In this document: positions 37,127-52,653 of the stretch, piece after piece | Numbering within the stretch: the stretch's first letter is position 1 | Layout of the letters: the number at the start of each line of letters is the position of its first letter | Source of the DNA: Candidatus Heimdallarchaeota archaeon | GTDB taxonomy: Archaea > Asgardarchaeota > Heimdallarchaeia > Hodarchaeales > Hodarchaeaceae | Direction of reading: 5' to 3' | Length of the DNA stretch: 64,000 bases | Assembly (NCBI GenBank): GCA_020353515.1 | Contig: CP070695.1 | Span: forward strand, 1,335,637 to 1,399,636 | The notes under the pieces: model-generated | Told to the model about the DNA's origin: nothing | Database searches by the model: none | The model's input: the letters and a program-made list of their open reading frames with translations, nothing else | Translations under genes and position numbers: made by a program

Positions 37127-37753
37127 TTAAATCCTAGCTATTTGAGATTCTTTCGTTCCATAAAGCTGAATCATGATGATTTCACGAGCTAATGATTGAA
37201 ATGCTCTCTTCACGCCGAGACCCGTGGTTGCTACAGTTTCATATATAGGGTAAGCTTGGATTTGTAATTTCTGGATTAATTCTGATCTGGGTAATGCGTC
37301 TTCGACATCACGTTTGTTTAGGGTAATCACAAGAGGTATTGATGTTCCTATCTGATCACCTAAATGCGTTTTCAATTCATTAAACGATTCCACATTCTCT
37401 TGATATTGAGATGCACTAGAATCAACAACAAAAATAAGACCATCTACTCCTTGAAGCACAATTTTTCGCTGGTGTTTGTGACGCTCTTGCCCTGCAGTGG
37501 TGTAAACATCAAACACAACTCCAGTAGTAGCTTGCATTGGAACAAAATCAAAAAATAATGTTCGTCCTGTTGGATCAGCTAATTGCGTGAACTTACCTTT
37601 CTCTAGGCCCTCTACTTTGTTATATAACCAAGCTAATGTTGATGTTTTTCCGCCTAAAGATGGTCCGTAGAAAACAATTTTAAATCGGTGACGACCTTCT
37701 GCGTCCTTTCTCAAGTAGTACGTCTCCTCCTTAGGAGGATTAGAATTTTTCAA
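37127..37753 (-). CDS. mglA: MglA-like small GTPase
   Basis: KIVFYGPSLGGKT, RTLFFDF, TTAGQ, GVDGLIFVVDS, NKRD, ETVA. Confidence 0.88.
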   Translation of the reverse strand: MKNSNPPKEETYYLRKDAEGRHRFKIVFYGPSLGGKTSTLAWLYNKVEGLEKGKFTQLADPTGRTLFFDFVPMQATTGVVFDVYTTAGQERHKHQRKIVLQGVDGLIFVVDSSASQYQENVESFNELKTHLGDQIGTSIPLVITLNKRDVEDALPRSELIQKLQIQAYPIYETVATTGLGVKRAFQSLAREIIMIQLYGTKESQIARI

Positions 37754-38234
37754 GTTCTCGTAGTGCTGCTTCTAATTCATCTTTCTCAAGACTAGTACGT
37801 ACCTCAGGAGCCGCAGATGCCACCCCTCCTATCGGCCGTGTTGGTTTTCCTGCTAAAAATTCGTCCAGAATGCTACTGAGCTCTTCATTAGCTTTTCTCA
37901 TGAGTAGACGAATCATTCCAATATTGACTTCAGCATCAGAAATAATTGTCAGAATCCCACGACCACAAGTACTTGCAAAGATTTTACCAGTATCAAATTC
38001 AGAGGTAACGATATCTAATCCACCAATTGTCAGATTTAGTCCCTGTTCAGCTGAAGCCATGAACACAGCTGAAGCAATAGCCCCTATCCCATCCACATCA
38101 ACACTGACATAGCTGAATTTTGAAACATGCGCAATAGTGAGACCAGTTCTATCAACAAGAATCACTTTTTTGATACCTGGTTCGCTTTTAATGATTTTAC
38201 TGAGTACAGTGTCAAATCTTCTGGGGTCTATCAT
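37740..38234 (-). CDS. mglB: MglB-like Roadblock protein with C-terminal acidic helix
   Basis: LVDRTGLTI, GAIASA, NIGMIRL; linker then LEKDELEAALRELEKF; overlaps GTPase start. Confidence 0.82.
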   Translation of the reverse strand: MIDPRRFDTVLSKIIKSEPGIKKVILVDRTGLTIAHVSKFSYVSVDVDGIGAIASAVFMASAEQGLNLTIGGLDIVTSEFDTGKIFASTCGRGILTIISDAEVNIGMIRLLMRKANEELSSILDEFLAGKPTRPIGGVASAAPEVRTSLEKDELEAALRELEKF

Positions 38235-41917: not shown

Positions 41918-41930
41918 GATTTTTATCTTT

Positions 41931-42262
41931 TAGAGATGGGTTATTATAGAATAATAGCCTACCTCGTTAGGGTGAGGTATAGTAGAGCCAAAAAAATAAT
42001 CTATCTCCTTCAGTTAAGAAGTAATCTTAGGAATAGTGAAGATTAAGCGCGGGGTAAACCAACTAATCGTAAAGAAGATTCTACTCTCTATAACAACATC
42101 AGTGCCAAGGATTTCACAGTCAGAAAACCTTGAATAGCCAAGTTACATGTCAGAAAACGCCCTAACATAAAGCTTTAAAAAGATTGAAAACGTGACTAAT
42201 GCAAATACAAGTGGAATATCTGATTCAGAGTGCCTGTTATGGTTGAGCTGAAAGCTCCTTTT
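41931..42262 (+). ncRNA. Candidate large structured, pseudoknotted non-coding RNA (unclassified)
   Basis: No long ORF; nine or more complementary segments with G-U pairs favouring + strand, two of them pseudoknots; ends in hairpin plus T-run. Confidence 0.5.
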
Positions 42263-42300
42263 TGAAATCAGCAATATATCAAAATATGGTGATTTAATTC

Positions 42301-43287
42301 ATGAAAGAAAACTTTATTAAAGCTAGTAACGCCCTTACACGATTAAATACTAGCGTATCAACCAATGCTCGAAGTGCTGCTGATATTACGATTAAAATTT
42401 ATACAAGATTCGAAGAAATCCGATATGTAAGTGAAACCATACCTGATTTTATTCTTCATCCTGACCAATCAATGTCCAATCTCAAATCGAGCGGTGAAAT
42501 TAGGGTTGCACAGCTACTTGCATCCATTCTCTGTGAACGAATAGCAGAGCAATCAATACGATTAGCAGAGGATCTTGATTTTGGTGAAGAGGGCCTAGAC
42601 ATTCGTGAAGAGATTCGTGAAATTAGAGAACAAATAACCAGATTGAATGAAGTTATCCAAGTTCAGAAGAAATTAGCTGATGGAGCTCCTGTTTCAACAG
42701 AAAACATTAAGAACTTGCAGAAAAAGTACGACGTACGAATTAAACAACTAGAACAAGAATTACTTAGAAAAGAAGGTCGTGCGTTGACTGTAACAGCTTT
42801 AGATGCTACAAAGAAACCCAAACTATTTGGAAAGGGAAAATTTGAGCAAACACTTGATGATTTAATTCTTGAATATGGAAAAAATCTTCGTGCAAGTTCT
42901 GGTGGTTATATTTCACTCGCAAACCTCTATACAGCATTAAAAAATCAAGTTCCTGATGTAAAATTTTCTACAAAAGACCTCGAAAAATCCTGTAAACGGT
43001 TAAAAAAACAGGCACTTATAGAAGGAGTCTCGAAAAGAGCAGGAGTAAAAATCATAGAATTTGTCCCTGTTGCTCTAGGGAGTGACGCGAGAAAAGTTTT
43101 CGATTTAGCAGTTAATAAGGGATATGTAACCTTGGAGGATGTTATATTGGGAACAAAATGGGATCAACAGCGTGTTGTTAGAGTTCTTGAGAGTCTAGTT
43201 GAGCAAAAAATAGCACGAAAAGTCTCGTCTCTTGATACAGGGGATCAATATTATTTTCCTGGATTATATGGAGATAATGATTGGTAG
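42301..43287 (+). CDS. ESCRT-II EAP30 (Vps22/Vps36)-like protein with N-terminal coiled coil
   Basis: Tandem winged helices GGYISLANLY...STKDLEKSCKRL and GYVTLEDV...WDQQRVVRVLESLV, ending YYFPGL. Confidence 0.8.
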   Translation: MKENFIKASNALTRLNTSVSTNARSAADITIKIYTRFEEIRYVSETIPDFILHPDQSMSNLKSSGEIRVAQLLASILCERIAEQSIRLAEDLDFGEEGLDIREEIREIREQITRLNEVIQVQKKLADGAPVSTENIKNLQKKYDVRIKQLEQELLRKEGRALTVTALDATKKPKLFGKGKFEQTLDDLILEYGKNLRASSGGYISLANLYTALKNQVPDVKFSTKDLEKSCKRLKKQALIEGVSKRAGVKIIEFVPVALGSDARKVFDLAVNKGYVTLEDVILGTKWDQQRVVRVLESLVEQKIARKVSSLDTGDQYYFPGLYGDNDW

Positions 43288-43297
43288 GTGAAAACTG

Positions 43298-44188
43298 ATG
43301 GCAGAAGTAGAGAAGTATGGTGGACTATTCCGCAGAATAGGCGATGCAGTGCATATTGGCACAAAAAAATTTAAAGGAAAAGCAATCTTGAGTTCAGATT
43401 TTGGATCAGAAATAGAAAGTTCTTTGATAAGTCGAATAAAATCAGAAGATTATGACAGTTTTAGGAAACATGATGGATTTATTGTGAAAGATCCGGAGAA
43501 CGCAATATTATTACAGTCAGGATCACTAGTGGGGGTTGCAGGAAGTGGCATCTATCAACTCGAGAAGAGTGCTAAACGACCTGGAAGCGAAATTATCTGG
43601 GTAACAAAGCGTGAGTTCATCGTCAAATGGGGATCACCTGGGGTATATACTTCTGATAATATTATAATAGGCTGTTATGGAATATCTCGTATGAGAGTTG
43701 TTAATCCCCGTAATTTTATTATGAATGTAGTTTCACATAAACAGTATTATTCAGGGAACGAACTAAAAAATTGGGTTAAACAAACAATTATTGCTGCAGT
43801 AAAACATGTTATGTCTCGCTATACCGTACCCGAATTACTTAAGGAACGTCGAAGCTTAGAAATCCAAACCAGATCAGAACTTGGACCTGAAACCTCTCGA
43901 TGGGGGCTAGAACTAGTTGGATTGGACATTGGGGGTTTTAAAGTTCCTGATGAATATCAGGCTCTATTATCTTATGAAATCGAAAAGCAAGTTCTGGAAC
44001 AACAACAGGAGTTAGCAGAGCAAAGAAAAGAGCTTGATGTTGTTGCGGAGAAAGTGAAGAAATACGAACAAATGCTTGAACAAGCAGATGAAATGTTTCT
44101 AAATGGGAAAATATCAGAGGAAAAGTATAAAGAACTAACAGATAAATACTCCAAGAAATTAGCTCAAATCAAAGCTCAAATGCAATAA
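43298..44188 (+). CDS. SPFH/band-7 domain protein with C-terminal coiled coil and short helical domain
   Basis: GIYQL, VKWG, YG...RVVNPRNF, WGLELVGLDI...VP.EY; tail FLNGKISEEKYKEL. Confidence 0.8.
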   Translation: MAEVEKYGGLFRRIGDAVHIGTKKFKGKAILSSDFGSEIESSLISRIKSEDYDSFRKHDGFIVKDPENAILLQSGSLVGVAGSGIYQLEKSAKRPGSEIIWVTKREFIVKWGSPGVYTSDNIIIGCYGISRMRVVNPRNFIMNVVSHKQYYSGNELKNWVKQTIIAAVKHVMSRYTVPELLKERRSLEIQTRSELGPETSRWGLELVGLDIGGFKVPDEYQALLSYEIEKQVLEQQQELAEQRKELDVVAEKVKKYEQMLEQADEMFLNGKISEEKYKELTDKYSKKLAQIKAQMQ

Positions 44189-44212
44189 TTTCAGAAACGA
44201 GTTAAATCTTTT

Positions 44213-45970
44213 TTATTGATGTTCTTCCAGATCTCCACCACATTCGGGGCAGAATACCATACCTACAGAGATCATTTCTTTGAAACAGTCTACACAGACG
44301 TTTACATCACATGATGGACACAAATATTTTGTTGTTTCTTCATGTGTGACTTCGCAGACACCACAGAGAAATTCTTCTTTCTGTTTAGCTATATGTAAAG
44401 TCATTTTTTGAATATTAATCCAGCCCTGAATCTTTCCATGAAGGATATGATTCTCCAATAAGGCTACAGTCTCTCTATCAGACCGATTTAATTTTTGAAT
44501 GATTTCTTGTAAGGGAATTTCTGCTTTAGGGGTCTGTTCAAGGTATTCAAGGAGAGTAGAGTCCAAATCAGGTTTTTTTGAATTGAAAATCTCGTATTCA
44601 GTCCATCCTAGTTTCAATGGACCTTTTTTACAGAAATGACACTCTTCTGTATCAAGTAAATTAAACGAATGAGTATAATTAACCATACAGTCAGGACAAT
44701 GCCTCGGGAGGTCAATAATAAAGGCAGAAATGTTTCCACAAAAAGGACATACATGTGTACTTCCTGTAGAACGGCAATTTGAGCACATAATTCGTCTACA
44801 GTTTTGACATTCGAAATAAAGATTAGGATCTGTATAAGAAGAAGTATCTACCTGACAAAAAATGTCAAAATGTTTCATTCCTTTAACTAAAAAAGGATCA
44901 GCAGTTTCTCCAGCTGTAAGTCGAAGTCCAAAAAGTCTTCCCAACTTGTGAAGACGATTTAAGAGCTTCAATGGGTCTAGATTCAGTGATGAAGCGAGGT
45001 TCTCAACCGCAATTCCTGTTTCAAACCAGTCTTTTAATGAGGGAGCTTGGAACTCCACTTCATTCAAAGTTCCCTTTAAGCTTCGATTTAAAAGCTGTAG
45101 TATATTTAAAAACTCAATCCTGTCTACATCAAGTCGATGAAGCCAGAATTCAATAGGAATATCTCGAAAGACGAATATATCTTTCAATACTTGGCTTATT
45201 ATGTCCATAGTGGGATATAAGTACTCATAATTGGCAGAAAAAATAATTTTCAGGTCTTCACGATTATTTTCTAGTAACTGAAGACAATTTTCTTTTGTTA
45301 GTCGTGTTAATTTGCTAATGTGCTTAAGTGAAACTTCTGATTCCAACAGAAAACTTGTATCTATATAGCGATTAAGTCTTTTGATATTTCTTTGTAAACC
45401 TGATGAAGAAGAGAAGTCTAAACTTGTAAAGTTGTGCAATCGCTGAGTTATGGGATCTATGTATCCAACAAAATGACCATCTTGGGCTAGAACCTCTAAG
45501 ATACCTTCAAAGTGATCCTCGGTCCAATACAATTTGTTTAAGAGAAATTTTAAGTTTAATGAGGTGACTGTACTTAGAATCTGTTTTAATTCAGCTTTGG
45601 CTCCTTGGAGTGTGTAGAATTTACGATGAATCTGATCAAAAAAACCATCAGTATTTTGAACATTGACTTTGATCAGGGTTTCTAGTAACTCACCAGGTAA
45701 GTTTGTTCTATCAATGACATCACAGATGTCTACATAACCCTTTGCTAATTTACGAGTAATATATTGCTGAATAAATATTAGAGGAATGAATTCCTTGTCA
45801 TCAAAACTAACAAAGCCATTTAATTCCTTTGAACCGATTTTTTTTCGCAGGAATGAAGCAACTTCACTTGGATTTTCTTTTGGAGCCATTTCACGCAATT
45901 TAATAGGAGTTTGTGCCATTTGAGCTTCTGTTAACCATTTTTGTCTCTTTCTCCCAAACATTAGTCTCAC
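44213..45970 (-). CDS. Winged-helix/PCI-repeat protein with RING-like Zn fingers (E3 ligase candidate)
   Basis: Repeated WH-like units; CxxC clusters at ~370-450; PCI-like HGKIQGWIN; terminal CGVC-CPSC-CVDC-CPEC. Confidence 0.7.
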   Translation of the reverse strand: MRLMFGRKRQKWLTEAQMAQTPIKLREMAPKENPSEVASFLRKKIGSKELNGFVSFDDKEFIPLIFIQQYITRKLAKGYVDICDVIDRTNLPGELLETLIKVNVQNTDGFFDQIHRKFYTLQGAKAELKQILSTVTSLNLKFLLNKLYWTEDHFEGILEVLAQDGHFVGYIDPITQRLHNFTSLDFSSSSGLQRNIKRLNRYIDTSFLLESEVSLKHISKLTRLTKENCLQLLENNREDLKIIFSANYEYLYPTMDIISQVLKDIFVFRDIPIEFWLHRLDVDRIEFLNILQLLNRSLKGTLNEVEFQAPSLKDWFETGIAVENLASSLNLDPLKLLNRLHKLGRLFGLRLTAGETADPFLVKGMKHFDIFCQVDTSSYTDPNLYFECQNCRRIMCSNCRSTGSTHVCPFCGNISAFIIDLPRHCPDCMVNYTHSFNLLDTEECHFCKKGPLKLGWTEYEIFNSKKPDLDSTLLEYLEQTPKAEIPLQEIIQKLNRSDRETVALLENHILHGKIQGWINIQKMTLHIAKQKEEFLCGVCEVTHEETTKYLCPSCDVNVCVDCFKEMISVGMVFCPECGGDLEEHQ

Positions 45971-46105
45971 TCAAATCTCTTGCTGGAAGAATACAATAGC
46001 AAGGAATATTAGTCCTCTTATTGAAAATTAGAAATATATTTTTATAAAATCTTTACTCTCTTACAGGATAGAAAAAAAGTGAGAATAACTTAAGGAATCA
46101 TTACA

Positions 46106-46420
46106 TTGGCTCTGAATAAGATTAAGTGTTCAAACTGCGGATATATTCCACGAGATCTCCCCGTTTCTGGGAGTTGGTATTGCCCTAAGTGTGGAAAACG
46201 CACGGTTATTCCCCAACACCGTCCACGACCTACTCGGAAATATTACAAAAAACCTACAACCACTCCCAAATCACGAGACCGAATAAGCACAAGCCTTTAT
46301 GATAAATTGACTTATGATAAACCCACAGATCATGGTTTCAAAGAACCTTATATTAACCCGAAAATCAATCCAATAATCCCGAAAAGGAGAGACAAAATCC
46401 GACTGTTCTTCAAAAAGTAA
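46106..46420 (+). CDS. Small Zn-ribbon protein with basic tail
   Basis: CSNCG ... WYCPKCG. Confidence 0.6.
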   Translation: MALNKIKCSNCGYIPRDLPVSGSWYCPKCGKRTVIPQHRPRPTRKYYKKPTTTPKSRDRISTSLYDKLTYDKPTDHGFKEPYINPKINPIIPKRRDKIRLFFKK

Positions 46421-46434
46421 TTTGTTTTCTTCTT

Positions 46435-47661
46435 TCAATCTCGAAATTTTATTTCTAGCCTGATTTCCTCATCATCAGCTATAGAACTTAGAGTGATCCT
46501 ATCACCATCAGAAATGATCTTTTGGACAGATTCATCTTCAGGTAGAAGGAAATTTCCTCGGAACCCAATATATTCTTTTTTATATTCTTGGCGAATGATA
46601 TCAATAACAGATTTAAAAAGTAACTCACGATCTACAGTTATAGTTCGTTCAACGTGCTTTACGGTATTGGATTGACCACATACCAAGCAATTTGGATCAG
46701 GAACCAGATCAAACGTATTTAAAGTTCCTGTTAAAGCTGAATAAACTGTAAAATGCGGGATACGAAATCTATGAGCTTCAATTAAATTATTCAGTGTGAC
46801 TGTTTCTTTGAGGAATTCTTTTTTCTCTAAAAAGAGAGCTTTCACGATTTCTTGTGATTGTATACCACTTGTCACCGCATTGACAGTGATTAAACTAGGT
46901 ACATGAAAAAGAATCAATTGTAAAAGCTCTTTCTTTTTAAAATCTCCAAAATTATGTTTTTTGGCACAAGTATTGGCTAATTTTGTGAGCTCAACAATAT
47001 CTTCAGGTGAGGTTTCGACAGGCTCCCTTTCATACTTTGCGTTAAATTCATAAAGAGCTTTCCAAGCACAGTGTTCTCTCACACGAGGAACTCCTACTAA
47101 AGTACAAGGAGCTGTTAAAACTCGAGTCTCATCTGGTGGTGGAGGTGTTTCGCATGCTAAACATGCTGTTTTGCTTGTTTTTATGTATTGGATTTGACCA
47201 AAATACCCATCAGTTGCTGAATCAATCAATGGAATCTTCAATTCTATTGCCATTGCGTTGAGATATTGTCGTGCCAGAAAGTTATCGACACAGCCAGCAA
47301 TTATGTCTACTTCTTGGAAAATTTTCTGGGGAATATTTTGTAATTTATCTGCGTATTCTTTAATCATGATGTCAGGATTAAATTGTTCTTTTATCCTTTT
47401 TTTGGCAATTTTTGCCTTTTTCTGACCAACATCTTCCTCCCTGAATAACATCTGCCGATTTAAATTTGAAAATTCAACAGTGTCATCATCGACTAGAATC
47501 AGACTACCAATACCTAAAAGAGCTAGATTTTTGGCTAGTTCACTGCCTGTTCCTCCCACGCCTGCAATTAAAATTGTACTTTTTTCAATGATATGTTGAT
47601 CCCAAAGAGCTAGTCGTTCCTGCCGATCATATTTAGAAGAAGAAGGAAGATCTCGTGTCAT
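46435..47661 (-). CDS. Ubiquitin-like activating enzyme E1 (eukaryote-like, UBA3/UBA2-type architecture)
   Basis: YDRQ, GVGGTG, DDDTVEFSNLNRQ, CVDN, CLAC, catalytic PCT...PR..EHC, CLVC, probable C-terminal ubiquitin-fold domain. Confidence 0.92.
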   Translation of the reverse strand: MTRDLPSSSKYDRQERLALWDQHIIEKSTILIAGVGGTGSELAKNLALLGIGSLILVDDDTVEFSNLNRQMLFREEDVGQKKAKIAKKRIKEQFNPDIMIKEYADKLQNIPQKIFQEVDIIAGCVDNFLARQYLNAMAIELKIPLIDSATDGYFGQIQYIKTSKTACLACETPPPPDETRVLTAPCTLVGVPRVREHCAWKALYEFNAKYEREPVETSPEDIVELTKLANTCAKKHNFGDFKKKELLQLILFHVPSLITVNAVTSGIQSQEIVKALFLEKKEFLKETVTLNNLIEAHRFRIPHFTVYSALTGTLNTFDLVPDPNCLVCGQSNTVKHVERTITVDRELLFKSVIDIIRQEYKKEYIGFRGNFLLPEDESVQKIISDGDRITLSSIADDEEIRLEIKFRD

Positions 47662-47699
47662 AGCATGAAATTTTCCTTTGAAATTAATGGGGGAGGGTA

Positions 47700-48020
47700 T
47701 TATCCTCCTTTAATTTGATCTGGAACTATCATAAGAATTGCATTTTGTTCTATTCCATAGGAAGCGAGGTTATTTGAAGGATTCATTCTTCTTCCTTTGA
47801 ATAATAAAGCGATTGGGACAACCTCTGGGATATTAAAGGCATCACGAGCCGCTGTGATAGCCTGGAAAACAGTTCCATTAATATTAATATATTTCTCCCG
47901 AATATTCTGATCTGGAGGAAGCTGTGGATCTTTAAAACGAACCTTAATCATTTTCTCAATGCCATCGTCAGGACCTTTACCTGTAGAACTAGAATCCCAA
48001 ACAACATCCTTTTTACTCAT
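47700..48020 (-). CDS. Ubiquitin-like modifier ending in GG, UFM1-like sequence features
   Basis: Beta-grasp pattern (LLFKGRRM..., LASYGI), terminal GG, directly upstream of E1. Confidence 0.88.
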   Translation of the reverse strand: MSKKDVVWDSSSTGKGPDDGIEKMIKVRFKDPQLPPDQNIREKYININGTVFQAITAARDAFNIPEVVPIALLFKGRRMNPSNNLASYGIEQNAILMIVPDQIKGG

Positions 48021-48040
48021 TTTTTCACCTTCTGTTTGAC

Positions 48041-48829
48041 TTAAGTATAAAACTTTCGTTCAATTTCTGAGAGTGTAGTAAGAATATCAATTCTTCCTTT
48101 AGCATAATCTTCTAAAGATCCTCGAATAAGCGGATATTTTGTAAGAATTTCATTTTCAAGACCTATGGGGAGATTCTTCTTTCTTTTAATAGTAAAGATT
48201 ATTACTTCGCCATCTTGGGCATAAAACCTTACAGTAATCTCTTTCTTCGACGCTGATGCGTCATAATTAGAAAGAATTTGACGTATGAGAGGATCACGTT
48301 CTTCTTGAGTAGCAGGAACCTCTGCTATGGAAACGGGCTCTCCCATAACTTGGGGCATTCTTTCAGCAGTTTTTTGATGAATCTCTTCTAAAACATCTAA
48401 AATTGTACTAGAACCAGGTGACCAGTTTCTCATATTATCTAAATCATTGATTTCACAATCTAAAACTTCTCGGAGCTTAGCAGGGCCATCAATATAGGGT
48501 CGGTCAGGTAAATCATCTAACACAATTAAAAGAGGGAATGCATATTCATTGACTTGCATCTTGATTCGTATTTTCCCTACTTCATCCCCAATAAATTCCC
48601 CTGGAAAGTTTTCAAGTAATTTTTGTGATTCTTGATAGATGAGATAGTAACTCTCCGCTTCTTCCGCTTCATCCAGTGCTTTAGCTTCTGTTGGTGTAAT
48701 AGCTGTTCGTTTTAAGTAATTTGAAAGATCACAGTATTCACACTTTACAGGATGTTGGAATGTTGGGCGTACTTGAAGTGGAGCTCCACAACCGCTACAT
48801 TGGGAAACATCGGTTTGGGTATCAGCCAT
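48041..48829 (-). CDS. Zn-ribbon plus probable catalytically inactive UBC/RWD-like domain protein
   Basis: CSGCG...CEYC; LIVLDDLPDRPYI and NWSPGSSTILDVLEEI resemble the UBC-fold YP..PP and W.P...I..VL..I elements; first gene of Ubl-E1 operon. Confidence 0.55.
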   Translation of the reverse strand: MADTQTDVSQCSGCGAPLQVRPTFQHPVKCEYCDLSNYLKRTAITPTEAKALDEAEEAESYYLIYQESQKLLENFPGEFIGDEVGKIRIKMQVNEYAFPLLIVLDDLPDRPYIDGPAKLREVLDCEINDLDNMRNWSPGSSTILDVLEEIHQKTAERMPQVMGEPVSIAEVPATQEERDPLIRQILSNYDASASKKEITVRFYAQDGEVIIFTIKRKKNLPIGLENEILTKYPLIRGSLEDYAKGRIDILTTLSEIERKFYT

Positions 48830-48860
48830 TTTTTTTCGATCACCCTTATTAGAAGAATAT

Positions 48861-49152
48861 GTGTGCAGGATAAGTCAGTCTCTTGACCTTAAAAAGGTAA
48901 CGATTCGTCGCCCACAATATCCCTTAAGTGGGTTCTACTGGGCGAGAGGAGGGTTCCAGAAAATATTCGTAACAATCTGGACAATGTTACACCTTCTAAT
49001 CCATTTTCTTCCGTCGCTCTCGCTCTCATTGGTGATTAGGAGCCTCTCTGATTGATAGATGGTGGCCCCGTTGTCAACAAAAAGGCGCTTCCATTACTTA
49101 AAGCAAAGGATTTCGACAAGTGCAAAGAGTTGAGAGTTCATCAGACATTGCA
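48861..49152. ncRNA. Candidate structured RNA between divergent Ubl-E1 and E2-JAMM operons
   Basis: ~44% GC by hand count, clearly above the AT-rich flank; ends pair with each other; several internal stems. Confidence 0.4.
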
Positions 49153-49467
49153 TAATACTTATTAAAATAGTTTGCATTGGATCCACAAGAACAACATCTG
49201 AGTGAGAGAGAGGAATTCACTTCACTACAGTCTAGACAGATTTTAACAAATAGAGATTTCCAACCCACGTATGTAGATGTAGTAATTATATGAAAAAGGG
49301 GTAATGTTAAACTCCAAATCTATACCTAAAGTTATAATTCAAGTTAAGAATATTGGAAATGTAGATAACGAGGGAAATAAGTATTAATTGCTGTTTTCAA
49401 ATTTCGTATTTTTAAATGTAAATTATTATATTGATATGTATTTCATGAGTATAAAGGTGAGAAAACC

Positions 49468-50019
49468 TTGCAGGATCTTCACTCAAGACGATTACGAGAA
49501 GAATTTAAGAGAATGCTAAAGACATATCCTCCGAAAACAAGTCATATCAAGTGGGTTATTGTTAACAATGATCTACATCATTATAAAGCTACAATTAAGG
49601 GAAAAAAAGACACTCCTTATGACGGGGGTGAGTTCGAGATCACTATCGATCTCCCTCCTGAATATCCCTTTAAACCACCGATTTGCAACTTTATAACCCC
49701 TATCTATCACCCCAATATTGCAATTGGTAAAACACAATGGAAATGGGGCTCCAATGTCTGTTTAAGTCTTGTTAATTGGAATAATCTAGGAAAACCTGGT
49801 GGATGGAAGGAAACAATCACCTTACCTAGTGTATTTGAACATATTGAAATGATGCTGGATGTGTATCAGGCAACTGGAGATGTTGATTTTCCAGAATATC
49901 TTGTTGATCCCAATGATCCTTTTAATCCTGAAGCTGGAGAGGCTATGAGACAAAATTTTGATAATTTCTGGGACACAGCTGAAGAATGGACTAAAAAGCA
50001 CGCACTTCTTATCGAATAG
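49468..50019 (+). CDS. Ubiquitin-conjugating enzyme E2
   Basis: RRLREE, G..DTPYDGGEF, YPFKPP, IYHPNI, catalytic VCLSL, W..TI. Confidence 0.95.
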   Translation: MQDLHSRRLREEFKRMLKTYPPKTSHIKWVIVNNDLHHYKATIKGKKDTPYDGGEFEITIDLPPEYPFKPPICNFITPIYHPNIAIGKTQWKWGSNVCLSLVNWNNLGKPGGWKETITLPSVFEHIEMMLDVYQATGDVDFPEYLVDPNDPFNPEAGEAMRQNFDNFWDTAEEWTKKHALLIE

Positions 50020-50035
50020 GCATTGTGAGTGCACT

Positions 50036-50536
50036 ATGTCTGAAATTGAAGATCTATCTATCCCTTCATCCCCTAAAGTCAAATCAGTTACTCTTATGGG
50101 AGCACTACTTGATGAAATGACCAAATATTCGAAGGAGGCTATGCCTAAGGAAGCCATTGGCCTTCTAGGCGGAAAAGAACTCCGGACTGATGAACTAATA
50201 TTATCTAGTATTCTCTTTGTTACGGAGGGTGACGAAGTTTCTGTTTCCTTTTCTGATGAGGATTTTAAAGCTTTTGAAGACATCTTAGAGAATGATTGTT
50301 ATTGTTTGGGATGGTGGCATTCTCACCCTGGATACGGCTTGTTTTTATCTCAAACGGATATTAAGACTCATATATACTCTTTTCAGCTACATAATGAACT
50401 TTCTGTTGCGTTAGTAGTTGAACCTACAAAGATCGATATGAATGGCCGCGCATCTTTCCAATTTTATCAAGTTATTCGTGAAAAAGGGAGTAATTCCTTC
50501 AAATATCAGGAAATTGCAAGTTATATTCAACCTTAA
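50036..50536 (+). CDS. JAMM/MPN+ isopeptidase (Rpn11/AMSH-like)
   Basis: EAIGLLGG and GWWHSHPGYGLFLSQTD (complete E-HxH-S-D motif); start taken at MSEIE. Confidence 0.93.
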   Translation: MSEIEDLSIPSSPKVKSVTLMGALLDEMTKYSKEAMPKEAIGLLGGKELRTDELILSSILFVTEGDEVSVSFSDEDFKAFEDILENDCYCLGWWHSHPGYGLFLSQTDIKTHIYSFQLHNELSVALVVEPTKIDMNGRASFQFYQVIREKGSNSFKYQEIASYIQP

Positions 50537-50706
50537 AGAAAAATGTATAGTTTAAACCATTTTGGGGGGGGGAAAATAGGTTTATTTCCAAATTAATTTG
50601 AATTGATGTTTCATACATTTTTGAAAAGGCCACTATAATGAATAGGAATTAATAACAATAAATATCCGAAGAAAAACAATTTAAATTGCTTAGCAAATTG
50701 TAAAAT

Positions 50707-51507
50707 ATGAGTTCGATGATGTCAGCCTTGGATCTTTTCAGACTTCCTCTCAAATATTCCACTCGTATTTTTCTCCAAAATGGATATGGGATAATAGATT
50801 ATATCGTGTTGTTTTTGGGTCCAGGGACTGTTTTATTCTTTACTTTCTACCTATTATGGTCTGGACGACGAAAAAATCAAAAAATTATGGATTTAGCGAG
50901 AGAGGCTTTACTCGAAGTCTTTGCAGAGGAATTTGATGATCTCGTTATGGAAGAGAAGAGTTCAAATGGAGGTTTACTCATTCCAAAGTATAAGAAATCA
51001 CAAACCTTATCATTCAAGGATTTTCGAGTGGTTTTTGCTTTGGAAGAAAGACATCTTATGCTTTCAGTCATCATTTCTTGGTTTGCAGGGGTAAATGATT
51101 ACATTGCCTTGGAAGCTAACGCTAAGAAAGGAAAAATCCCTACAAAAATTCAGATTATTCCGAAAAATGAAGAAGGCCAAATCAAGAAACATCAAGAACT
51201 CTTATTTAAACTCGAGGAAATTGAACTCGGTATAAAACAATTAGATGAGTTTTTCTTATTGAAAGCAACTTCTCAACGAGCGGGGACATATTTTCTCGGG
51301 GATAAGAATCTATTGAGATTGCTTCACAATATACGAAAAGTTGTCGTCCGAATATCAATCAATTCTGCTGAAGATCCCTCCATTCGTATCTATGCAAGGA
51401 TCAACGAAGATCTAAGTCTTGAAAAGGTGCAAGAATTCTTCCTTGCATTATGTGAGCGCGTAAATGAGGTCTCTGAGAAAGTAGTCATGAAGAAGAAACG
51501 GCCTTAG
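50707..51507 (+). CDS. CCDC47/DUF1682-like (PAT complex) single-pass membrane protein
   Basis: TM followed by SGRRKNQKI; later ALEERHLMLSVIISWF; same layout as CCDC47 G..KN..IA and L..RQD segments. Confidence 0.6.
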   Translation: MSSMMSALDLFRLPLKYSTRIFLQNGYGIIDYIVLFLGPGTVLFFTFYLLWSGRRKNQKIMDLAREALLEVFAEEFDDLVMEEKSSNGGLLIPKYKKSQTLSFKDFRVVFALEERHLMLSVIISWFAGVNDYIALEANAKKGKIPTKIQIIPKNEEGQIKKHQELLFKLEEIELGIKQLDEFFLLKATSQRAGTYFLGDKNLLRLLHNIRKVVVRISINSAEDPSIRIYARINEDLSLEKVQEFFLALCERVNEVSEKVVMKKKRP

Positions 51508-51528
51508 AACGTTCTATTCTTGAACCTG

Positions 51529-52092
51529 TTACAAGAGCTCGATTTTCTCAGTCACTCTCTGACGAAGCCACTCAAGTCCTTCCTCTACATTGAACCCAGT
51601 TTTAGCAGATGTTGGTACAATGGCATATGAATGCGTGGTGACTTTGTGGAGGTTTAGTCCTCGGGCAACTTCCCCCGCAGATGCTGCGGAAGGTAAATCT
51701 TGTTTATTTGCAAGAACTAGAATAGGAATGTTTTCAACTTTGTCATTGTCAAGAACATATTTCCATAATTCTATCTTTGCTTCATCTATTCGTGATCTAT
51801 CAGCACTATCGACTACATATACGATTCCCATACTACCTGACATGTAACTTTCCCATAAAGACTCACGAAATGCTTCTTGGCCTCCAATGTCCCACGAAAT
51901 AAAACGAACGTTTCCTGAACTAAATTCATCAACATTCATGCCCAATGTTCGAAAAGTACTACTATCAAATTCCCCAGAAGTAATTCTTTTGACAAGAGTA
52001 GTTTTTCCAGCTTGGTCAAGACCAAGCCAAGCAATCTTGACAGTCAATTTTTCTTTAGCAAATTTTGCTCGTAACTTTGAAAGGAAACTCAT
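51529..52092 (-). CDS. Arf/Arl-like small GTPase with N-terminal amphipathic helix
   Basis: GLDQAGKTT, TLGMN, WDIGGQ..FR..W..Y, NKQD, SAKTG. Confidence 0.93.
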   Translation of the reverse strand: MSFLSKLRAKFAKEKLTVKIAWLGLDQAGKTTLVKRITSGEFDSSTFRTLGMNVDEFSSGNVRFISWDIGGQEAFRESLWESYMSGSMGIVYVVDSADRSRIDEAKIELWKYVLDNDKVENIPILVLANKQDLPSAASAGEVARGLNLHKVTTHSYAIVPTSAKTGFNVEEGLEWLRQRVTEKIELL

Positions 52093-52107
52093 TTAGGGCA
52101 CCTATCT

Positions 52108-52653
52108 TTATTTCCGCATCATTTTACTCCGGAATCTATCACTCATCCACTGCCATGGTTCATCAACACCATCACCAGTTAAAGCTGAGCAAGGGTAAAC
52201 TGCAAAGGTTCTGGGTCTTGTAGCCATTTCTGTTTCGAGCTTTAGTGTATGGATAATATTCTCTAAGGACATTGCTTCTGTTAAATCTTGTTTATTTGCC
52301 AAAAAAAGAAATGCAGAGTCTTCTGGTGCCCATTGGATAACGTTTTTTAACCATACTCCCGCATTCTCCACTTTAGACCTGTCTGCAGAGTCAAAAACGA
52401 AAACAATGCCAGATGCCTCTGAAACGAATGGCTCCCACAAGCTTGTAGGATATGTGGGTTGTCCTCCGAGATCTACTGCCATTACTTCAATATCTCCAAT
52501 TTTTAGAGTCTCAATATTCATTCCCATGGTGGGAACGGTCTCTAGATTGTCGTCGCCCTTAAGACGCTTAACTAATGTAGTTTTTCCTGCATTGGCTAAG
52601 CCTACAAATGCGATTTGATTCTCAATTTCACGACCAAACAATTTCGTCGGCAT
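52108..52653 (-). CDS. Arf/Arl-like small GTPase
   Basis: GLANAGKTT, PTMGMN, DLGGQ, NKQD, CSALTG. Confidence 0.92.
   Translation of the reverse strand: MPTKLFGREIENQIAFVGLANAGKTTLVKRLKGDDNLETVPTMGMNIETLKIGDIEVMAVDLGGQPTYPTSLWEPFVSEASGIVFVFDSADRSKVENAGVWLKNVIQWAPEDSAFLFLANKQDLTEAMSLENIIHTLKLETEMATRPRTFAVYPCSALTGDGVDEPWQWMSDRFRSKMMRK

What the first reader, a model, noticed from the sequence alone, without database searches (positions are those of the whole stretch)
42301..52653. Self-contained ubiquitin-like conjugation locus with UFMylation-like features, embedded among membrane/translocon genes
Seen in sequence, within ~10 kb: a GG-terminated modifier, an E1 with a eukaryote-type catalytic Cys domain, an HPN/Cys E2, an intact JAMM protease, a UBC/RWD-like accessory protein and a WH-repeat/RING-like protein. 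These are flanked by ESCRT-II-like plus SPFH genes on one side and CCDC47-like plus two Arf-like GTPases on the other. Established: Asgard archaea encode ubiquitin and ESCRT genes; in eukaryotes UFM1/UFL1 modify uL24 on ER-bound 60S subunits, and CCDC47 belongs to the multipass translocon. Inference: this is a distinct Ubl pathway pairing a UFM1-like tag and UFL1-like scaffold with canonical E1/E2/RING/JAMM chemistry instead of UBA5/UFC1/UFSP. It may be a proto-UFMylation or membrane quality-control system.
Basis: partly seen in the sequence, partly recalled or inferred. Interest (0 to 1): 0.88.

Follow-up and report, generated by a model that had tools for sequence, protein, structure and literature searches.

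The report
Hodarchaeal ubiquitin-type cassette, UFL1-like RING ligase
An Asgard (Hodarchaeales) archaeon carries a complete extra ubiquitin-type tagging gene set whose likely ligase joins the winged-helix scaffold of the eukaryotic UFM1 ligase UFL1 to RING fingers, but its tag and enzymes are of the ubiquitin kind, so it hints at what UFL1 did before UFM1 existed and is not a proto-UFM1 pathway.

Summary
All twelve genes are at the stated coordinates. Pfam, PDB profile searches and conserved motifs confirm a GG-ended modifier, a UBA1/UBA3-type E1, an HPN-Cys E2, a JAMM protease, an EAP30 (ESCRT-II-like) protein, an SPFH protein and two Arf-family GTPases.

The UFM1-like tag is not supported. 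Pfam Ufm1 gives no hit and ubiquitins rank first. The genome has no UFC1 or DDRGK match.

This closed genome has three ubiquitin-type systems, and the canonical ubiquitin/ESCRT-I cluster lies elsewhere. Only the 262-aa protein, Ubl, E1 and WH-array protein stay linked in divergent lineages. In a distant class, Ubl-E1-E2-JAMM form one operon.

The 266-aa protein belongs to an Asgard-wide CCDC47-like family. That family pairs with an Arf-like gene without any Ubl genes in other Heimdallarchaeia, so it is a separate module.

Verdict: a new variant of the known Asgard ubiquitin systems. Proto-UFMylation or translocon quality control is not shown. This scan found the same cassette earlier on other Hodarchaeales genomes.

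The parts
48041..48829 (-). 262-aa accessory protein: N-terminal CxxC...CxxC Zn ribbon plus a domain of unresolved fold (RWD-like by eye). It is the first gene of the 262-Ubl-E1 unit.
   Evidence: It is conserved next to the Ubl in every lineage that has the Ubl, at 30-87% identity, including the divergent loci L012, L010 and L066. It has no Cys that is conserved across lineages. It has no PDB or Pfam match apart from the Zn ribbon.
47700..48020 (-). 106-aa ubiquitin-like modifier. It has a roughly 20-aa N-terminal extension, the invariant motifs FKDPQLP and IVPDQIKGG, and a free GG end.
   Evidence: Pfam gives Rad60-SLD 28 bits and ubiquitin 22.7 bits. Some orthologues carry 1-3 extra residues after GG, which implies C-terminal processing. 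The family is 57-96% identical across Hodarchaeales.
46435..47661 (-). 408-aa E1 with a ThiF adenylation domain. It has a Cys in the motif PCTLVGVP and two CxxC Zn motifs. The C-terminal roughly 70 aa may be a ubiquitin-fold domain (inferred).
   Evidence: ThiF scores 188 bits. The best PDB relatives are the UBA1 active adenylation domain at 2.8e-38, SAE2 at 5e-34 and UBA3 at 3e-29. UBA5 reaches only 6e-17. The Cys motif is kept in 23/23 orthologues.
46106..46420 (+). 104-aa Zn-ribbon protein with a basic, Pro-rich tail. It lies on the opposite strand between the E1 and the 585-aa gene. Its role is unknown.
   Evidence: It gives weak Zn-ribbon Pfam hits only. It is present at this position in all Hodarchaeales loci at 40-83% identity.
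44213..45970 (-). 585-aa candidate E3. Its layout is:
- a six-winged-helix array homologous to UFL1 (about 20-355);
- a RING-like finger C372-x2-D375...C388-x2-C391-x4-C396-x2-C399-x8-C408-x2-C411;
- a Zn ribbon C425/C428...C444/C447;
- a PCI-type winged helix (471-527);
- a C4C4 RING-like finger (536-577).
49468..50019 (+). 183-aa E2 of the UBC fold with HPN and a catalytic Cys98. It has long loops on either side of the Cys.
   Evidence: UQ_con gives 9e-25. H81, N83 and C98 are invariant. It is 56% identical to the E2 that sits inside the Ubl-E1-E2-JAMM operon of a genome from another class.
50036..50536 (+). JAMM/MPN+ metalloprotease. The likely start is the ATG at 50036. The longest ORF starts at 49958 and overlaps the E2.
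   Evidence: JAB gives 8.3e-11 and Prok-JAB 3.3e-9. HSHP...S..D is kept in 17/17 orthologues.
42301..43287 (+). 328-aa EAP30 (Vps22/36-like) paralogue with a long N-terminal coiled coil. It is a neighbouring module and is not shown to be part of the cascade.
   Evidence: EAP30 scores 37.5 bits. The genome's canonical Vps22 (56.9 bits) lies in the other ubiquitin-ESCRT cluster. Full-length orthologues are found only in Hodarchaeales.
43298..44188 (+). 296-aa SPFH/Band-7 protein, 10 nt downstream of the EAP30 gene. It is a neighbouring module.
   Evidence: Band_7 gives 4.2e-17. It is paired with EAP30 in all Hodarchaeales loci.
50707..51507 (+). 266-aa single-pass membrane protein, a divergent member of an Asgard CCDC47/DUF1682-like family. 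It is a neighbouring module.
   Evidence: 8 of 14 orthologues hit PF07946, best E 3.4e-4. The family HMM hits exactly the Asgard ORFs that score over the Pfam CCDC47 cut-off. There is also a protein-language-model lead at 0.83. The fold was not confirmed: AF2 gave pLDDT 53.
51529..52653 (-). Two tandem Arf-family small GTPases, of 187 and 181 aa.
   Evidence: Arf gives 6.8e-48 and 5.5e-39, with SRPRB as a secondary hit. An Arf-like gene also sits next to the CCDC47-like gene in other Heimdallarchaeia families.

Best explanation
This is one of three paralogous ubiquitin-type conjugation systems of a Hodarchaeales (Heimdallarchaeia, Asgard) archaeon.

Proposed cascade:
- The 106-aa Ubl has a free GG end here and a 1-3-residue extension in some relatives. 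The JAMM protease trims such extensions and removes the tag from targets (inferred).
- The UBA1/UBA3-type E1 adenylates the Ubl and takes it as a thioester on the Cys of PCTLVGVP. This is inferred from motif conservation and homology.
- The Ubl then passes to Cys98 of the HPN-type E2 (inferred).
- The 585-aa protein is the E3. One or both of its RING-like fingers dock E2~Ubl. Its UFL1-homologous array of winged helices holds the substrate or a scaffold (inferred).
- The 262-aa Zn-ribbon protein has no conserved Cys. It is an obligatory non-catalytic cofactor of unknown fold, because it never leaves the Ubl-E1 pair.

The tag, E1 and E2 are of the ubiquitin kind, not the UFM1/UBA5/UFC1 kind. EAP30-SPFH and CCDC47-like/Arf/Arf are separate modules that sit beside the cascade only in this order.
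For: Identity of the parts:
- Catalytic motifs are conserved in 17-23 orthologues.
- The Ubl end is invariant, with occasional post-GG residues.

The 585-aa protein:
- UFL1 homology is shown by profile (E 1.5e-6; the only significant PDB family).
- Both fingers have eight-ligand cross-brace spacing with invariant Cys.
- RING E3s (BRE1, UHRF1, MAT1, NOT4, TRIM56) are the recurring hits to residues 528-582.

Linkage:
- 262-Ubl-E1-WH-array stay together at 27-59% identity in L012, L010 and L066.
- Ubl-E1-E2-JAMM form a single operon in a genome of another class, at 55/43/56/37% identity.

Distinctness:
- The canonical Ub (PF00240, 56 bits) with its own E1/E2/UEV/Vps28 is elsewhere, and a third system is elsewhere again.

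Precedent:
- An Asgard E1-E2-RING cascade has been reconstituted in vitro (bioRxiv 10.1101/2023.07.25.550441).
Against: - No biochemical or expression data exist for this cassette.
- The C-terminal C4C4 finger is degenerate in the two most divergent lineages, so it may not be the working RING.
- The RING profile hits are individually weak (E 0.017-0.2).
- The finger region has the lowest model confidence (pLDDT 57-90).
- E2 and JAMM are not adjacent to the core in L012, L010 and L066.
- The fold and role of the 262-aa protein are unknown.
- Within Hodarchaeales, synteny also covers housekeeping genes. It therefore does not prove function there.
Confidence: 0.7

Rival explanations
1. Proto-UFMylation or translocon quality control. 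The Ubl is the ancestor or sister of UFM1. The UFL1-like E3 docks on the large ribosomal subunit at the membrane and tags a ribosomal protein. It acts together with the CCDC47-like protein and the Arf/SR-beta-like GTPases.
For: - The E3 is a true UFL1 relative.
- A probable CCDC47 relative and two Arf/SRPRB-like GTPases lie within 2 kb of E2-JAMM.
- The literature places the origin of UFL1, and structure-defined Ufm1 homologues, in Asgard archaea (PMC10183829; PMC12962969).
- Mouse UFM1 (1j0g) aligns end to end with the Ubl, but at E 0.53.
Against: - The Ufm1 Pfam model does not hit the Ubl or any of 301 Asgard genomes above its cut-off.
- The family profile favours ubiquitins, with UFM1 outside the best 60.
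- The N-terminal half alone finds no UFM1.
- The tag ends in GG, the E1 is UBA1/UBA3-like rather than UBA5-like, and the E2 is HPN-type.
- No UFC1 or DDRGK match exists in this 96%-complete closed genome.
- CCDC47-like/Arf is a module of its own in other families, without Ubl genes nearby.
- No ribosome link was tested.
Confidence: 0.12
2. Membrane-sorting tag. The cascade marks membrane cargo, which is read by the adjacent coiled-coil EAP30 (ESCRT-II-like) paralogue within SPFH microdomains. This would be a second, ESCRT-II-centred ubiquitin-sorting route.
For: - The EAP30-SPFH pair ends 25 nt from the E3 gene's stop and is kept there in all Hodarchaeales loci.
- Asgard ubiquitin and ESCRT genes are known to be syntenic and to interact (PMC9192718).
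Against: - EAP30-SPFH is absent from the neighbourhood of the core in L012, L010, L065 and L066.
- No Vps25, ESCRT-III or Vps4 lies in the block.
- The genome's canonical Vps22 sits with the other ubiquitin system.
- No ubiquitin-binding domain was identified in this EAP30 protein.
Confidence: 0.12
3. Not a protein tag at all. The Ubl-E1 pair would be a sulfur-carrier system of the SAMP/Urm1/MoaD type.
For: - ThiF-family E1s with GG-ended beta-grasp partners also serve in sulfur transfer.
- ThiF and MoeB are among the PDB hits (1.7e-26 and 4.4e-20).
Against: - The E1 is much closer to UBA1/SAE2/UBA3 and keeps their catalytic Cys motif.
- A cognate HPN-Cys E2, RING-like fingers and a JAMM protease travel with it.
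- Pfam found only ThiF and a weak E1_4HB hit in the E1, with no rhodanese domain.
Confidence: 0.02

Closest known systems
Asgard/archaeal ubiquitin operons (Caldiarchaeum Ub-E1-E2-RING-Rpn11; Asgard Ub-ESCRT clusters: PMC9192718, bioRxiv 10.1101/2023.07.25.550441)
   Same: It has a GG-ended beta-grasp tag, a UBA1/UBA3-type single-chain E1, a UBC E2 with HPN-Cys, a RING-type E3 candidate and a JAMM protease. These are clustered, and an ESCRT-related gene is nearby.
   Different: - It is an additional system beside the canonical one. The published Hodarchaeia cluster with Yip1 and a Rab-like GTPase is the one at 3.97 Mb in this genome.
- The tag is far from ubiquitin: 22.7 bits against 56 bits on PF00240.
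- The E3 is a 585-aa UFL1-like WH array rather than a small RING protein.
- A 262-aa Zn-ribbon cofactor heads the operon.
- The ESCRT neighbour is a lone coiled-coil EAP30 paralogue paired with SPFH.
Eukaryotic UFL1 (E3 UFM1-protein ligase 1; PF09743; PDB 8ohd, 8qfc, 8b9x, 8c0d)
   Same: The tandem winged-helix array is homologous in sequence (E about 1e-6) and co-linear in fold over about 240-290 residues. An N-terminal helix precedes the array.
   Different: - UFL1 has no RING. It acts as a scaffold with DDRGK1, CDK5RAP3 and UFC1 on UFM1.
- This protein has two RING-like fingers, a Zn ribbon and a PCI-type WH.
- It lacks UFL1's coiled coil and C-terminal domain.
- It sits with ubiquitin-type enzymes.
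- UFC1 and DDRGK are not detected in the genome.
- The Pfam score (16.1) is below the cut-off (23.2).
Asgard 'E3 UFM1-protein ligase 1 homologues' already in the literature (Zaremba-Niedzwiedzka 2017, cited in PMC10183829; bioRxiv 10.1101/2020.10.19.343400)
   Same: They share UFL1-type winged helices and are Asgard proteins. PF09743 hits 107 of 301 Asgard genomes.
   Different: - The strong hits are about 800-aa proteins with N-terminal Zn fingers and a long C-terminal region that was not scanned here. The preprint describes adaptin/COPI C-terminal-domain and Vps28/Vps23 fusions. They were not seen next to a Ubl-E1.
- The Hodarchaeales 585-aa family is a different architecture and mostly falls below the Pfam cut-off.
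CNOT4/NOT4-type C4C4 RING fingers
   Same: The spacing C-x2-C-x11-C-x2-C-x4-C-x2-C-x11-C-x2-C has eight Cys ligands. NOT4, MAT1 and p44 fingers are among the profile hits.
   Different: - The hits are weak (E 0.02-1).
- E2 binding is untested.
- The finger is degenerate in two divergent lineages.
Eukaryotic CCDC47 (PAT complex subunit; PF07946)
   Same: The 266-aa neighbour has one TM helix followed by a cytosolic domain. Its orthologues hit PF07946, and its family HMM links to Asgard proteins that score over the Pfam cut-off.
   Different: - It is much shorter.
- No CCDC47 chain was hit by the family profile in the PDB.
- The fold is unconfirmed.
- Its conserved partner is an Arf-like GTPase, not a Ubl system.

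Membership tests
UFL1 / E3_UFM1_ligase (PF09743) | N-terminal tandem winged-helix array homologous to that of UFL1 | tested here: met
UFL1 / E3_UFM1_ligase (PF09743) | Score at or above Pfam's gathering cut-off (23.2 bits) | tested here: not met
   The window protein scores 16.1 bits, E 0.0089. Only one orthologue (P0075) has a precomputed PF09743 hit. The own-genome six-frame search found no match at E<=1.
UFL1 / E3_UFM1_ligase (PF09743) | RING-less scaffold E3 acting with UFC1, DDRGK1 and UFM1 | tested here: not met
   The protein has two RING-like fingers. No UFC1 (PF08694) match and no credible DDRGK (PF09756) match exist in the genome. There is no Ufm1 match.
UFM1 (PF03671) | Sequence membership of the modifier | tested here: not met
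   - The window Ubl has no PF03671 hit at E<=10; only one distant relative scores 12.6 bits.
- 0 of 301 Asgard genomes score over the cut-off.
- The profile search against the PDB ranks ubiquitins first, with UFM1 outside the best 60.
- The single sequence against mouse UFM1 gives E 0.53.
UFM1 (PF03671) | UFM1-type fold details, and a mature C-terminus with a single Gly made by a UFSP Cys protease | not tested
   The Ubl ends in GG and the linked protease is a JAMM metalloprotease.
Ubiquitin-type E1 (canonical UBA1/UBA3/SAE2 group) | ThiF adenylation domain plus a catalytic Cys in the conserved motif after the crossover region | tested here: met
   ThiF scores 188 bits. UBA1 gives 2.8e-38, with PCTL aligned to UBA1's P-I-C-T-L motif. 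The motif is kept in 23/23 orthologues.
UBC E2 (PF00179) | UBC fold with an HPN triad and a catalytic Cys | tested here: met
   UQ_con scores 87.4 bits. H81, N83 and C98 are invariant and P82 is nearly so. HPN...C is found in 17/18 orthologues.
JAMM/MPN+ deubiquitinase (PF01398) | H-x-H-x(7)-S-x2-D metal site | tested here: met
   JAB scores 42.2 bits. HSHP..S..D is found in 17/17 orthologues.
RING finger E3 | Eight-ligand cross-brace Zn site | tested here: inconclusive
   - Both fingers have the right spacing, with invariant ligands.
- RING E3s are the recurring hits to residues 528-582, but only at E 0.017-0.2.
- The C-terminal finger is degenerate in 2 of 23 orthologues, and the middle finger is intact in 23/23.
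- The cross-brace topology was not checked in coordinates.
RING finger E3 | Binds E2~Ubl and stimulates transfer | not testable with these tools
   This needs in vitro reconstitution.
CCDC47 (PF07946) | Sequence membership of the 266-aa protein | tested here: inconclusive
   - The window protein itself has no hit.
- 8 of 14 orthologues hit PF07946, best E 3.4e-4.
- The family HMM hits (22-41 bits) exactly the Asgard ORFs found with PF07946, 13 of them over the cut-off.
- The family profile against the PDB finds no CCDC47 chain at E<=10.
CCDC47 (PF07946) | CCDC47 cytosolic-domain fold | tested here: inconclusive
   The AF2 model reached only pLDDT 53.3. Its Foldseek list is therefore meaningless.
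ESCRT-II Vps22/Vps36 (EAP30, PF04157) | Tandem-WH EAP30 domain over the Pfam cut-off | tested here: met
   It scores 37.5 bits against a cut-off of 26.8, over residues 160-302. It is a paralogue: the canonical copy scores 56.9 bits at 3.968 Mb.
RWD/UEV/UBC-like fold (262-aa protein) | UBC-superfamily fold | tested here: inconclusive
   - There is a protein-language-model lead to an archaeal UFC1-domain cluster, at only 0.75.
- hhalign against an E2 alignment gives probability 0.2.
- There is no PDB or Pfam hit.
- RWD-like motifs were seen by eye only.
- An earlier scan report calls the orthologue a FANCL-like double RWD. This was not tested here.

The most novel reading that the evidence does not exclude
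UFL1 began as the substrate-holding arm of a RING E3 in a ubiquitin-type cascade. This Hodarchaeales cassette would be a living relative of that pre-UFM1 state. Its winged-helix array would already dock on the large ribosomal subunit at the membrane, working beside the CCDC47-like/Arf-like module. Eukaryotes would later have lost the RING and swapped in UFM1, UBA5 and UFC1.
Probability: 0.12. Interest if true: 0.85.

Novelty: new variant of a known kind. Interest (0 to 1): 0.55.

Why it matters
Picchianti et al. 2023 (PMC10183829) proposed that UFL1 arose in Asgard archaea before UFM1 and had a UFM1-independent function, but they named no function. This cassette gives a concrete, testable candidate: a UFL1-type scaffold fused to RING fingers and genetically tied to a ubiquitin-type tag, E1, E2 and protease. 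All parts are small, soluble and conserved, so the cascade could be reconstituted in vitro and its targets sought.

The work also shows that the closest archaeal relatives of eukaryotes already run several parallel ubiquitin-like systems. In addition, it points to an Asgard-wide CCDC47-like/Arf-like gene pair. No paper in the searched library holds both 'CCDC47' and 'Asgard'.

Tried and rejected
- Complex prediction of the 262-aa protein (residues 50-262) with the Ubl (20-106) gave no verdict: score 0.18 against a mark of 0.32. This is no evidence either way.
- The AF2 model of the 266-aa protein, from a 14-row alignment, reached pLDDT 53. The Foldseek search with it found nothing usable.
- Family profiles of the 262-aa and 266-aa proteins against the PDB gave nothing beyond Zn-ribbon noise.
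- hhalign of the 262-aa family against an E2 alignment gave probability 0.2.
- The 'UFM1-like' reading of the Ubl was considered and rejected.
- The transitive route through Asgard proteins that hit Pfam Ufm1 failed, because none reaches the cut-off.
- The look-up of sequencing runs listed no RNA holder.
- Rfam found no RNA family anywhere in the window, including the two gaps that other notes flagged as structured RNAs.
- I rejected the idea that the whole 10-kb stretch is one functional module. Synteny within Hodarchaeales extends equally to ThrRS, PRT, eIF2-alpha, GNAT and GINS, and the flanking modules separate from the core in other lineages.

Full report
**What is there.**
The window comes from a closed 4.94-Mb genome, 96% complete. 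Close homologues carry the names Hodarchaeales/Hodarchaeota, within Heimdallarchaeia.

Pfam identifies these:
- EAP30, 37.5 bits
- SPFH, 63 bits
- a ThiF E1, 188 bits
- a Ubl (Rad60-SLD 28 bits, ubiquitin 22.7 bits)
- a UQ_con E2, 87 bits
- a JAB protease, 42 bits
- two Arf-family GTPases, 163 and 134 bits

The 585-aa protein gives only weak hits: PCI at 3.4e-5 and E3_UFM1_ligase at 0.0089, which is below the cut-off. The 262-aa and 266-aa proteins have no family hit.

**The enzymes are ubiquitin-type.**
The E1 is closest to the active adenylation domain of UBA1 (2.8e-38), SAE2 (5e-34) and UBA3 (3e-29). UBA5 is far weaker, at 6e-17. The E1 Cys in PCTLVGVP aligns with the motif that holds the catalytic Cys of human UBA1 (the residue's role is from established knowledge). 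That motif is kept in 23/23 orthologues.

The E2 keeps HPN and Cys98. The protease keeps HSHP..S..D in 17/17 orthologues. The Ubl family is 57-96% identical, with invariant FKDPQLP and IVPDQIKGG. Some members carry 1-3 residues after GG, as expected for a processed, conjugated tag.

**The 585-aa protein.**
An AF2 model from 38 orthologues is confident: pLDDT 87.3, pTM 0.75. It shows six winged helices, a Zn-finger region (about 360-460), a seventh PCI-type winged helix (471-527) and a C-terminal finger.

Three lines of evidence tie it to UFL1:
- Foldseek against the PDB ranks five UFL1 entries first (9.7e-9 to 1.5e-7). The next family, SelB, is at 2.2e-5.
- A sequence profile of the family finds UFL1 chains as its only significant PDB hits (1.5e-6 to 9.4e-6). 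A run of RING E3s (BRE1, UHRF1, MAT1, NOT4, TRIM56, RNF31) hits residues 528-582 at E 0.017-0.2.

The sequence shows two eight-ligand patterns:
- C372-x2-D375-x12-C-x2-C-x4-C-x2-C-x8-C-x2-C, invariant in 23/23 orthologues
- C536-x2-C-x11-C-x2-C-x4-C-x2-C-x11-C-x2-C, a NOT4-like C4C4 spacing (from my own knowledge), intact in 21/23

So the 'UFL1-like scaffold plus RING' part of the finding holds. Membership in the Pfam family does not formally hold, since 16.1 bits is below the 23.2 cut-off. The functional definition of UFL1 (RING-less, acting with UFC1, DDRGK1 and UFM1) is not met. The genome has no UFC1 or credible DDRGK match.

**The tag is not UFM1-like by any test I could run.**
- Pfam Ufm1 does not hit it. 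Among distant relatives, only one gives 12.6 bits.
- No Asgard genome of 301 reaches the Ufm1 cut-off.
- The family profile against the PDB raises ubiquitins (an archaeal ubiquitin at 0.008). UFM1 is not among the best 60.
- The end-to-end phmmer match to mouse UFM1 has E 0.53.
- The N-terminal half alone finds no UFM1.

A recent paper reports structure-defined Ufm1 homologues in nine Asgard clades (PMC12962969). I could not map those onto this protein and did not fold the Ubl, so a structural resemblance is not excluded.

**It is nevertheless a distinct pathway.**
The genome has:
- A canonical ubiquitin (PF00240, 56 bits) with its own E1, E2, UEV, Vps28, Yip1 and Ras-like GTPase at 3.97 Mb. 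This is the Hodarchaeia cluster described in bioRxiv 10.1101/2023.07.25.550441.
- A third set at 3.885 Mb, with two Ubls ending in a single Gly, an E1, an E2, a JAMM and a weak RING-like protein.
- A fourth, prokaryote-style JAB-ThiF-E2-like set at 4.40 Mb.

The window's E1 and E2 are nearest to those of the third set, at 37% and 30% identity.

**Linkage.**
In about 20 Hodarchaeales genomes the whole 20-kb order is identical: PRT, ThrRS, Arf, Arf, 266, JAMM, E2, 262, Ubl, E1, Zn104, 585, SPFH, EAP30, GNAT, eIF2-alpha, GINS. This holds down to 35% identity of the 585-aa protein. Housekeeping genes share this synteny, so it cannot by itself show function.

Divergent lineages are more informative:
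- In L012, L010 and L066, only 262-Ubl-E1-(WH-array protein) remain together.
- In a genome of another class (G070), Ubl-E1-E2-JAMM form one operon with 55/43/56/37% identity to the window proteins.
- That genome also has a 666-aa protein with PF09743 over the cut-off and a C-terminal finger matched by the family HMM.

So the cascade genes belong together. EAP30-SPFH and 266-Arf-Arf do not travel with them.

The Ubl family is found in 19/20 genomes of the window's own family, 1/2 of the sister family, 1/6 of one distant family, and nowhere else among the 301 Asgard genomes searched.

**The CCDC47-like neighbour.**
The window protein itself has no Pfam hit, but 8 of 14 orthologues hit PF07946, best 3.4e-4. 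PF07946 finds ORFs of 226-330 aa in 38/301 Asgard genomes, 13 of them over the cut-off, and none in 14 control genomes. An HMM of the window family hits exactly those ORFs at 22-41 bits. A protein-language-model search lists CCDC47 as the best named family, at 0.83, which is only a lead. The structure test failed, with pLDDT 53.

In four loci of another Heimdallarchaeia family, the CCDC47-like gene lies directly beside an Arf-like gene. In the three of those loci fetched with about 8-kb flanks, there is no E2, JAMM or Ubl within 8 kb. I read this as a separate CCDC47-like/Arf-like module.

**What remains open.**
The 262-aa protein is the least understood obligatory part. It has a Zn ribbon plus about 210 residues with no detectable relative. 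There is a weak lead to an archaeal UFC1-domain cluster (0.75). It has no Cys conserved across lineages, so it is not a catalytic E2.

**Prior knowledge and novelty.**
Already published:
- Asgard ubiquitin systems and ubiquitin-ESCRT synteny (PMC9192718)
- an in vitro Asgard E1-E2-RING cascade (bioRxiv 10.1101/2023.07.25.550441)
- Asgard 'E3 UFM1 ligase 1 homologues' and their fusions (bioRxiv 10.1101/2020.10.19.343400)
- the Asgard origin of UFL1 and DDRGK1 (PMC10183829)
- Asgard Ufm1 homologues (PMC12962969)

I found no paper describing this cassette, its UFL1-WH/RING fusion or an Asgard CCDC47 relative.

The scan itself has met the same cassette on several other Hodarchaeales genomes. Earlier follow-ups reached the same core reading. 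My tests agree with them.

I rate it a new variant of a known kind. It has moderate interest as a testable lead on the pre-UFM1 role of UFL1. I do not rate it a proto-UFMylation system.

Noticed in passing
L006 (G000 3966000-3985999), L007 (G000 3878000-3893999), L008 (G000 4396000-4411999): The genome holds three further E1/E2 sets.
- L006: the canonical Ub-ESCRT-I cluster, with Vps28, UEV, a Ras-like GTPase, PAP2, Yip1, E1, Ub and E2.
- L007: two Ubls ending in ...TAG and ...TAGIYY (a single Gly), an E1, an E2, a 302-aa JAMM and a 385-aa weak RING-like protein.
- L008: a prokaryote-style JAB-ThiF-x-E2-like set next to a TPR protein and a C25 peptidase.
   Followed up: partly
window 50707-52653; loci L048, L049/L051, L052, L054: A CCDC47-like gene lies directly beside an Arf-like GTPase gene in a second Heimdallarchaeia family, with no Ubl genes nearby. 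This looks like a conserved two-gene module. PF07946 hits 38/301 Asgard genomes and 0/14 controls. No paper in the library holds both 'CCDC47' and 'Asgard'.
   Followed up: partly
L065 3578-6418; L067 507-2897 and 2935-4935: In a genome of another Asgard class, the Ubl-E1-E2-JAMM operon is followed by a 946-aa protein with TRAP_beta (52 bits), CARDB and a Zn ribbon. Elsewhere in that genome, a 666-aa UFL1-like (PF09743, 30.9 bits) plus RING-like protein sits next to a 796-aa CARDB/TRAP_beta/adaptin-C-like protein.
   Followed up: no
window 46106-46420 (+): A 104-aa protein has an N-terminal Zn ribbon and a basic, Pro-rich tail. It is conserved at this exact position, on the opposite strand between the E1 and the E3 candidate, in all Hodarchaeales loci. 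It has no family assignment.
   Followed up: partly
window 48830-49467 and 41918-42300: These are two long ORF-free gaps. One is 638 nt, between the divergent 262-Ubl-E1 and E2-JAMM units. The other is 383 nt, upstream of EAP30. Other first-stage notes flagged them as structured RNAs. Rfam at gathering threshold finds nothing in the whole window.
   Followed up: partly
window 37127-38234 (-): A Roadblock/LC7 (MAPKK1_Int-like) gene overlaps a small Arf/Ras-like GTPase gene. The pair is conserved at 71-98% identity across Hodarchaeales. It resembles the published Asgard Roadblock/LAMTOR-GTPase neighbourhood.
   Followed up: no
L066 8389-9990: In the sister family of the same order, the gene after 262-Ubl-E1 encodes a 533-aa protein made of many HTH/winged-helix units with an N-terminal DUF6011 finger. 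The 585-aa family HMM does not match it, so the WH-array partner is kept but highly diverged.
   Followed up: no
L035 433-2799: The strongest PF09743 hits in Asgard (62/68 genomes of one family) are about 790-800-aa proteins. They have N-terminal Zn fingers, UFL1-like winged helices and a long C-terminal region that was not scanned here. The preprint 10.1101/2020.10.19.343400 describes adaptin/COPI C-terminal-domain fusions. Their architecture differs from that of the window protein.
   Followed up: partly
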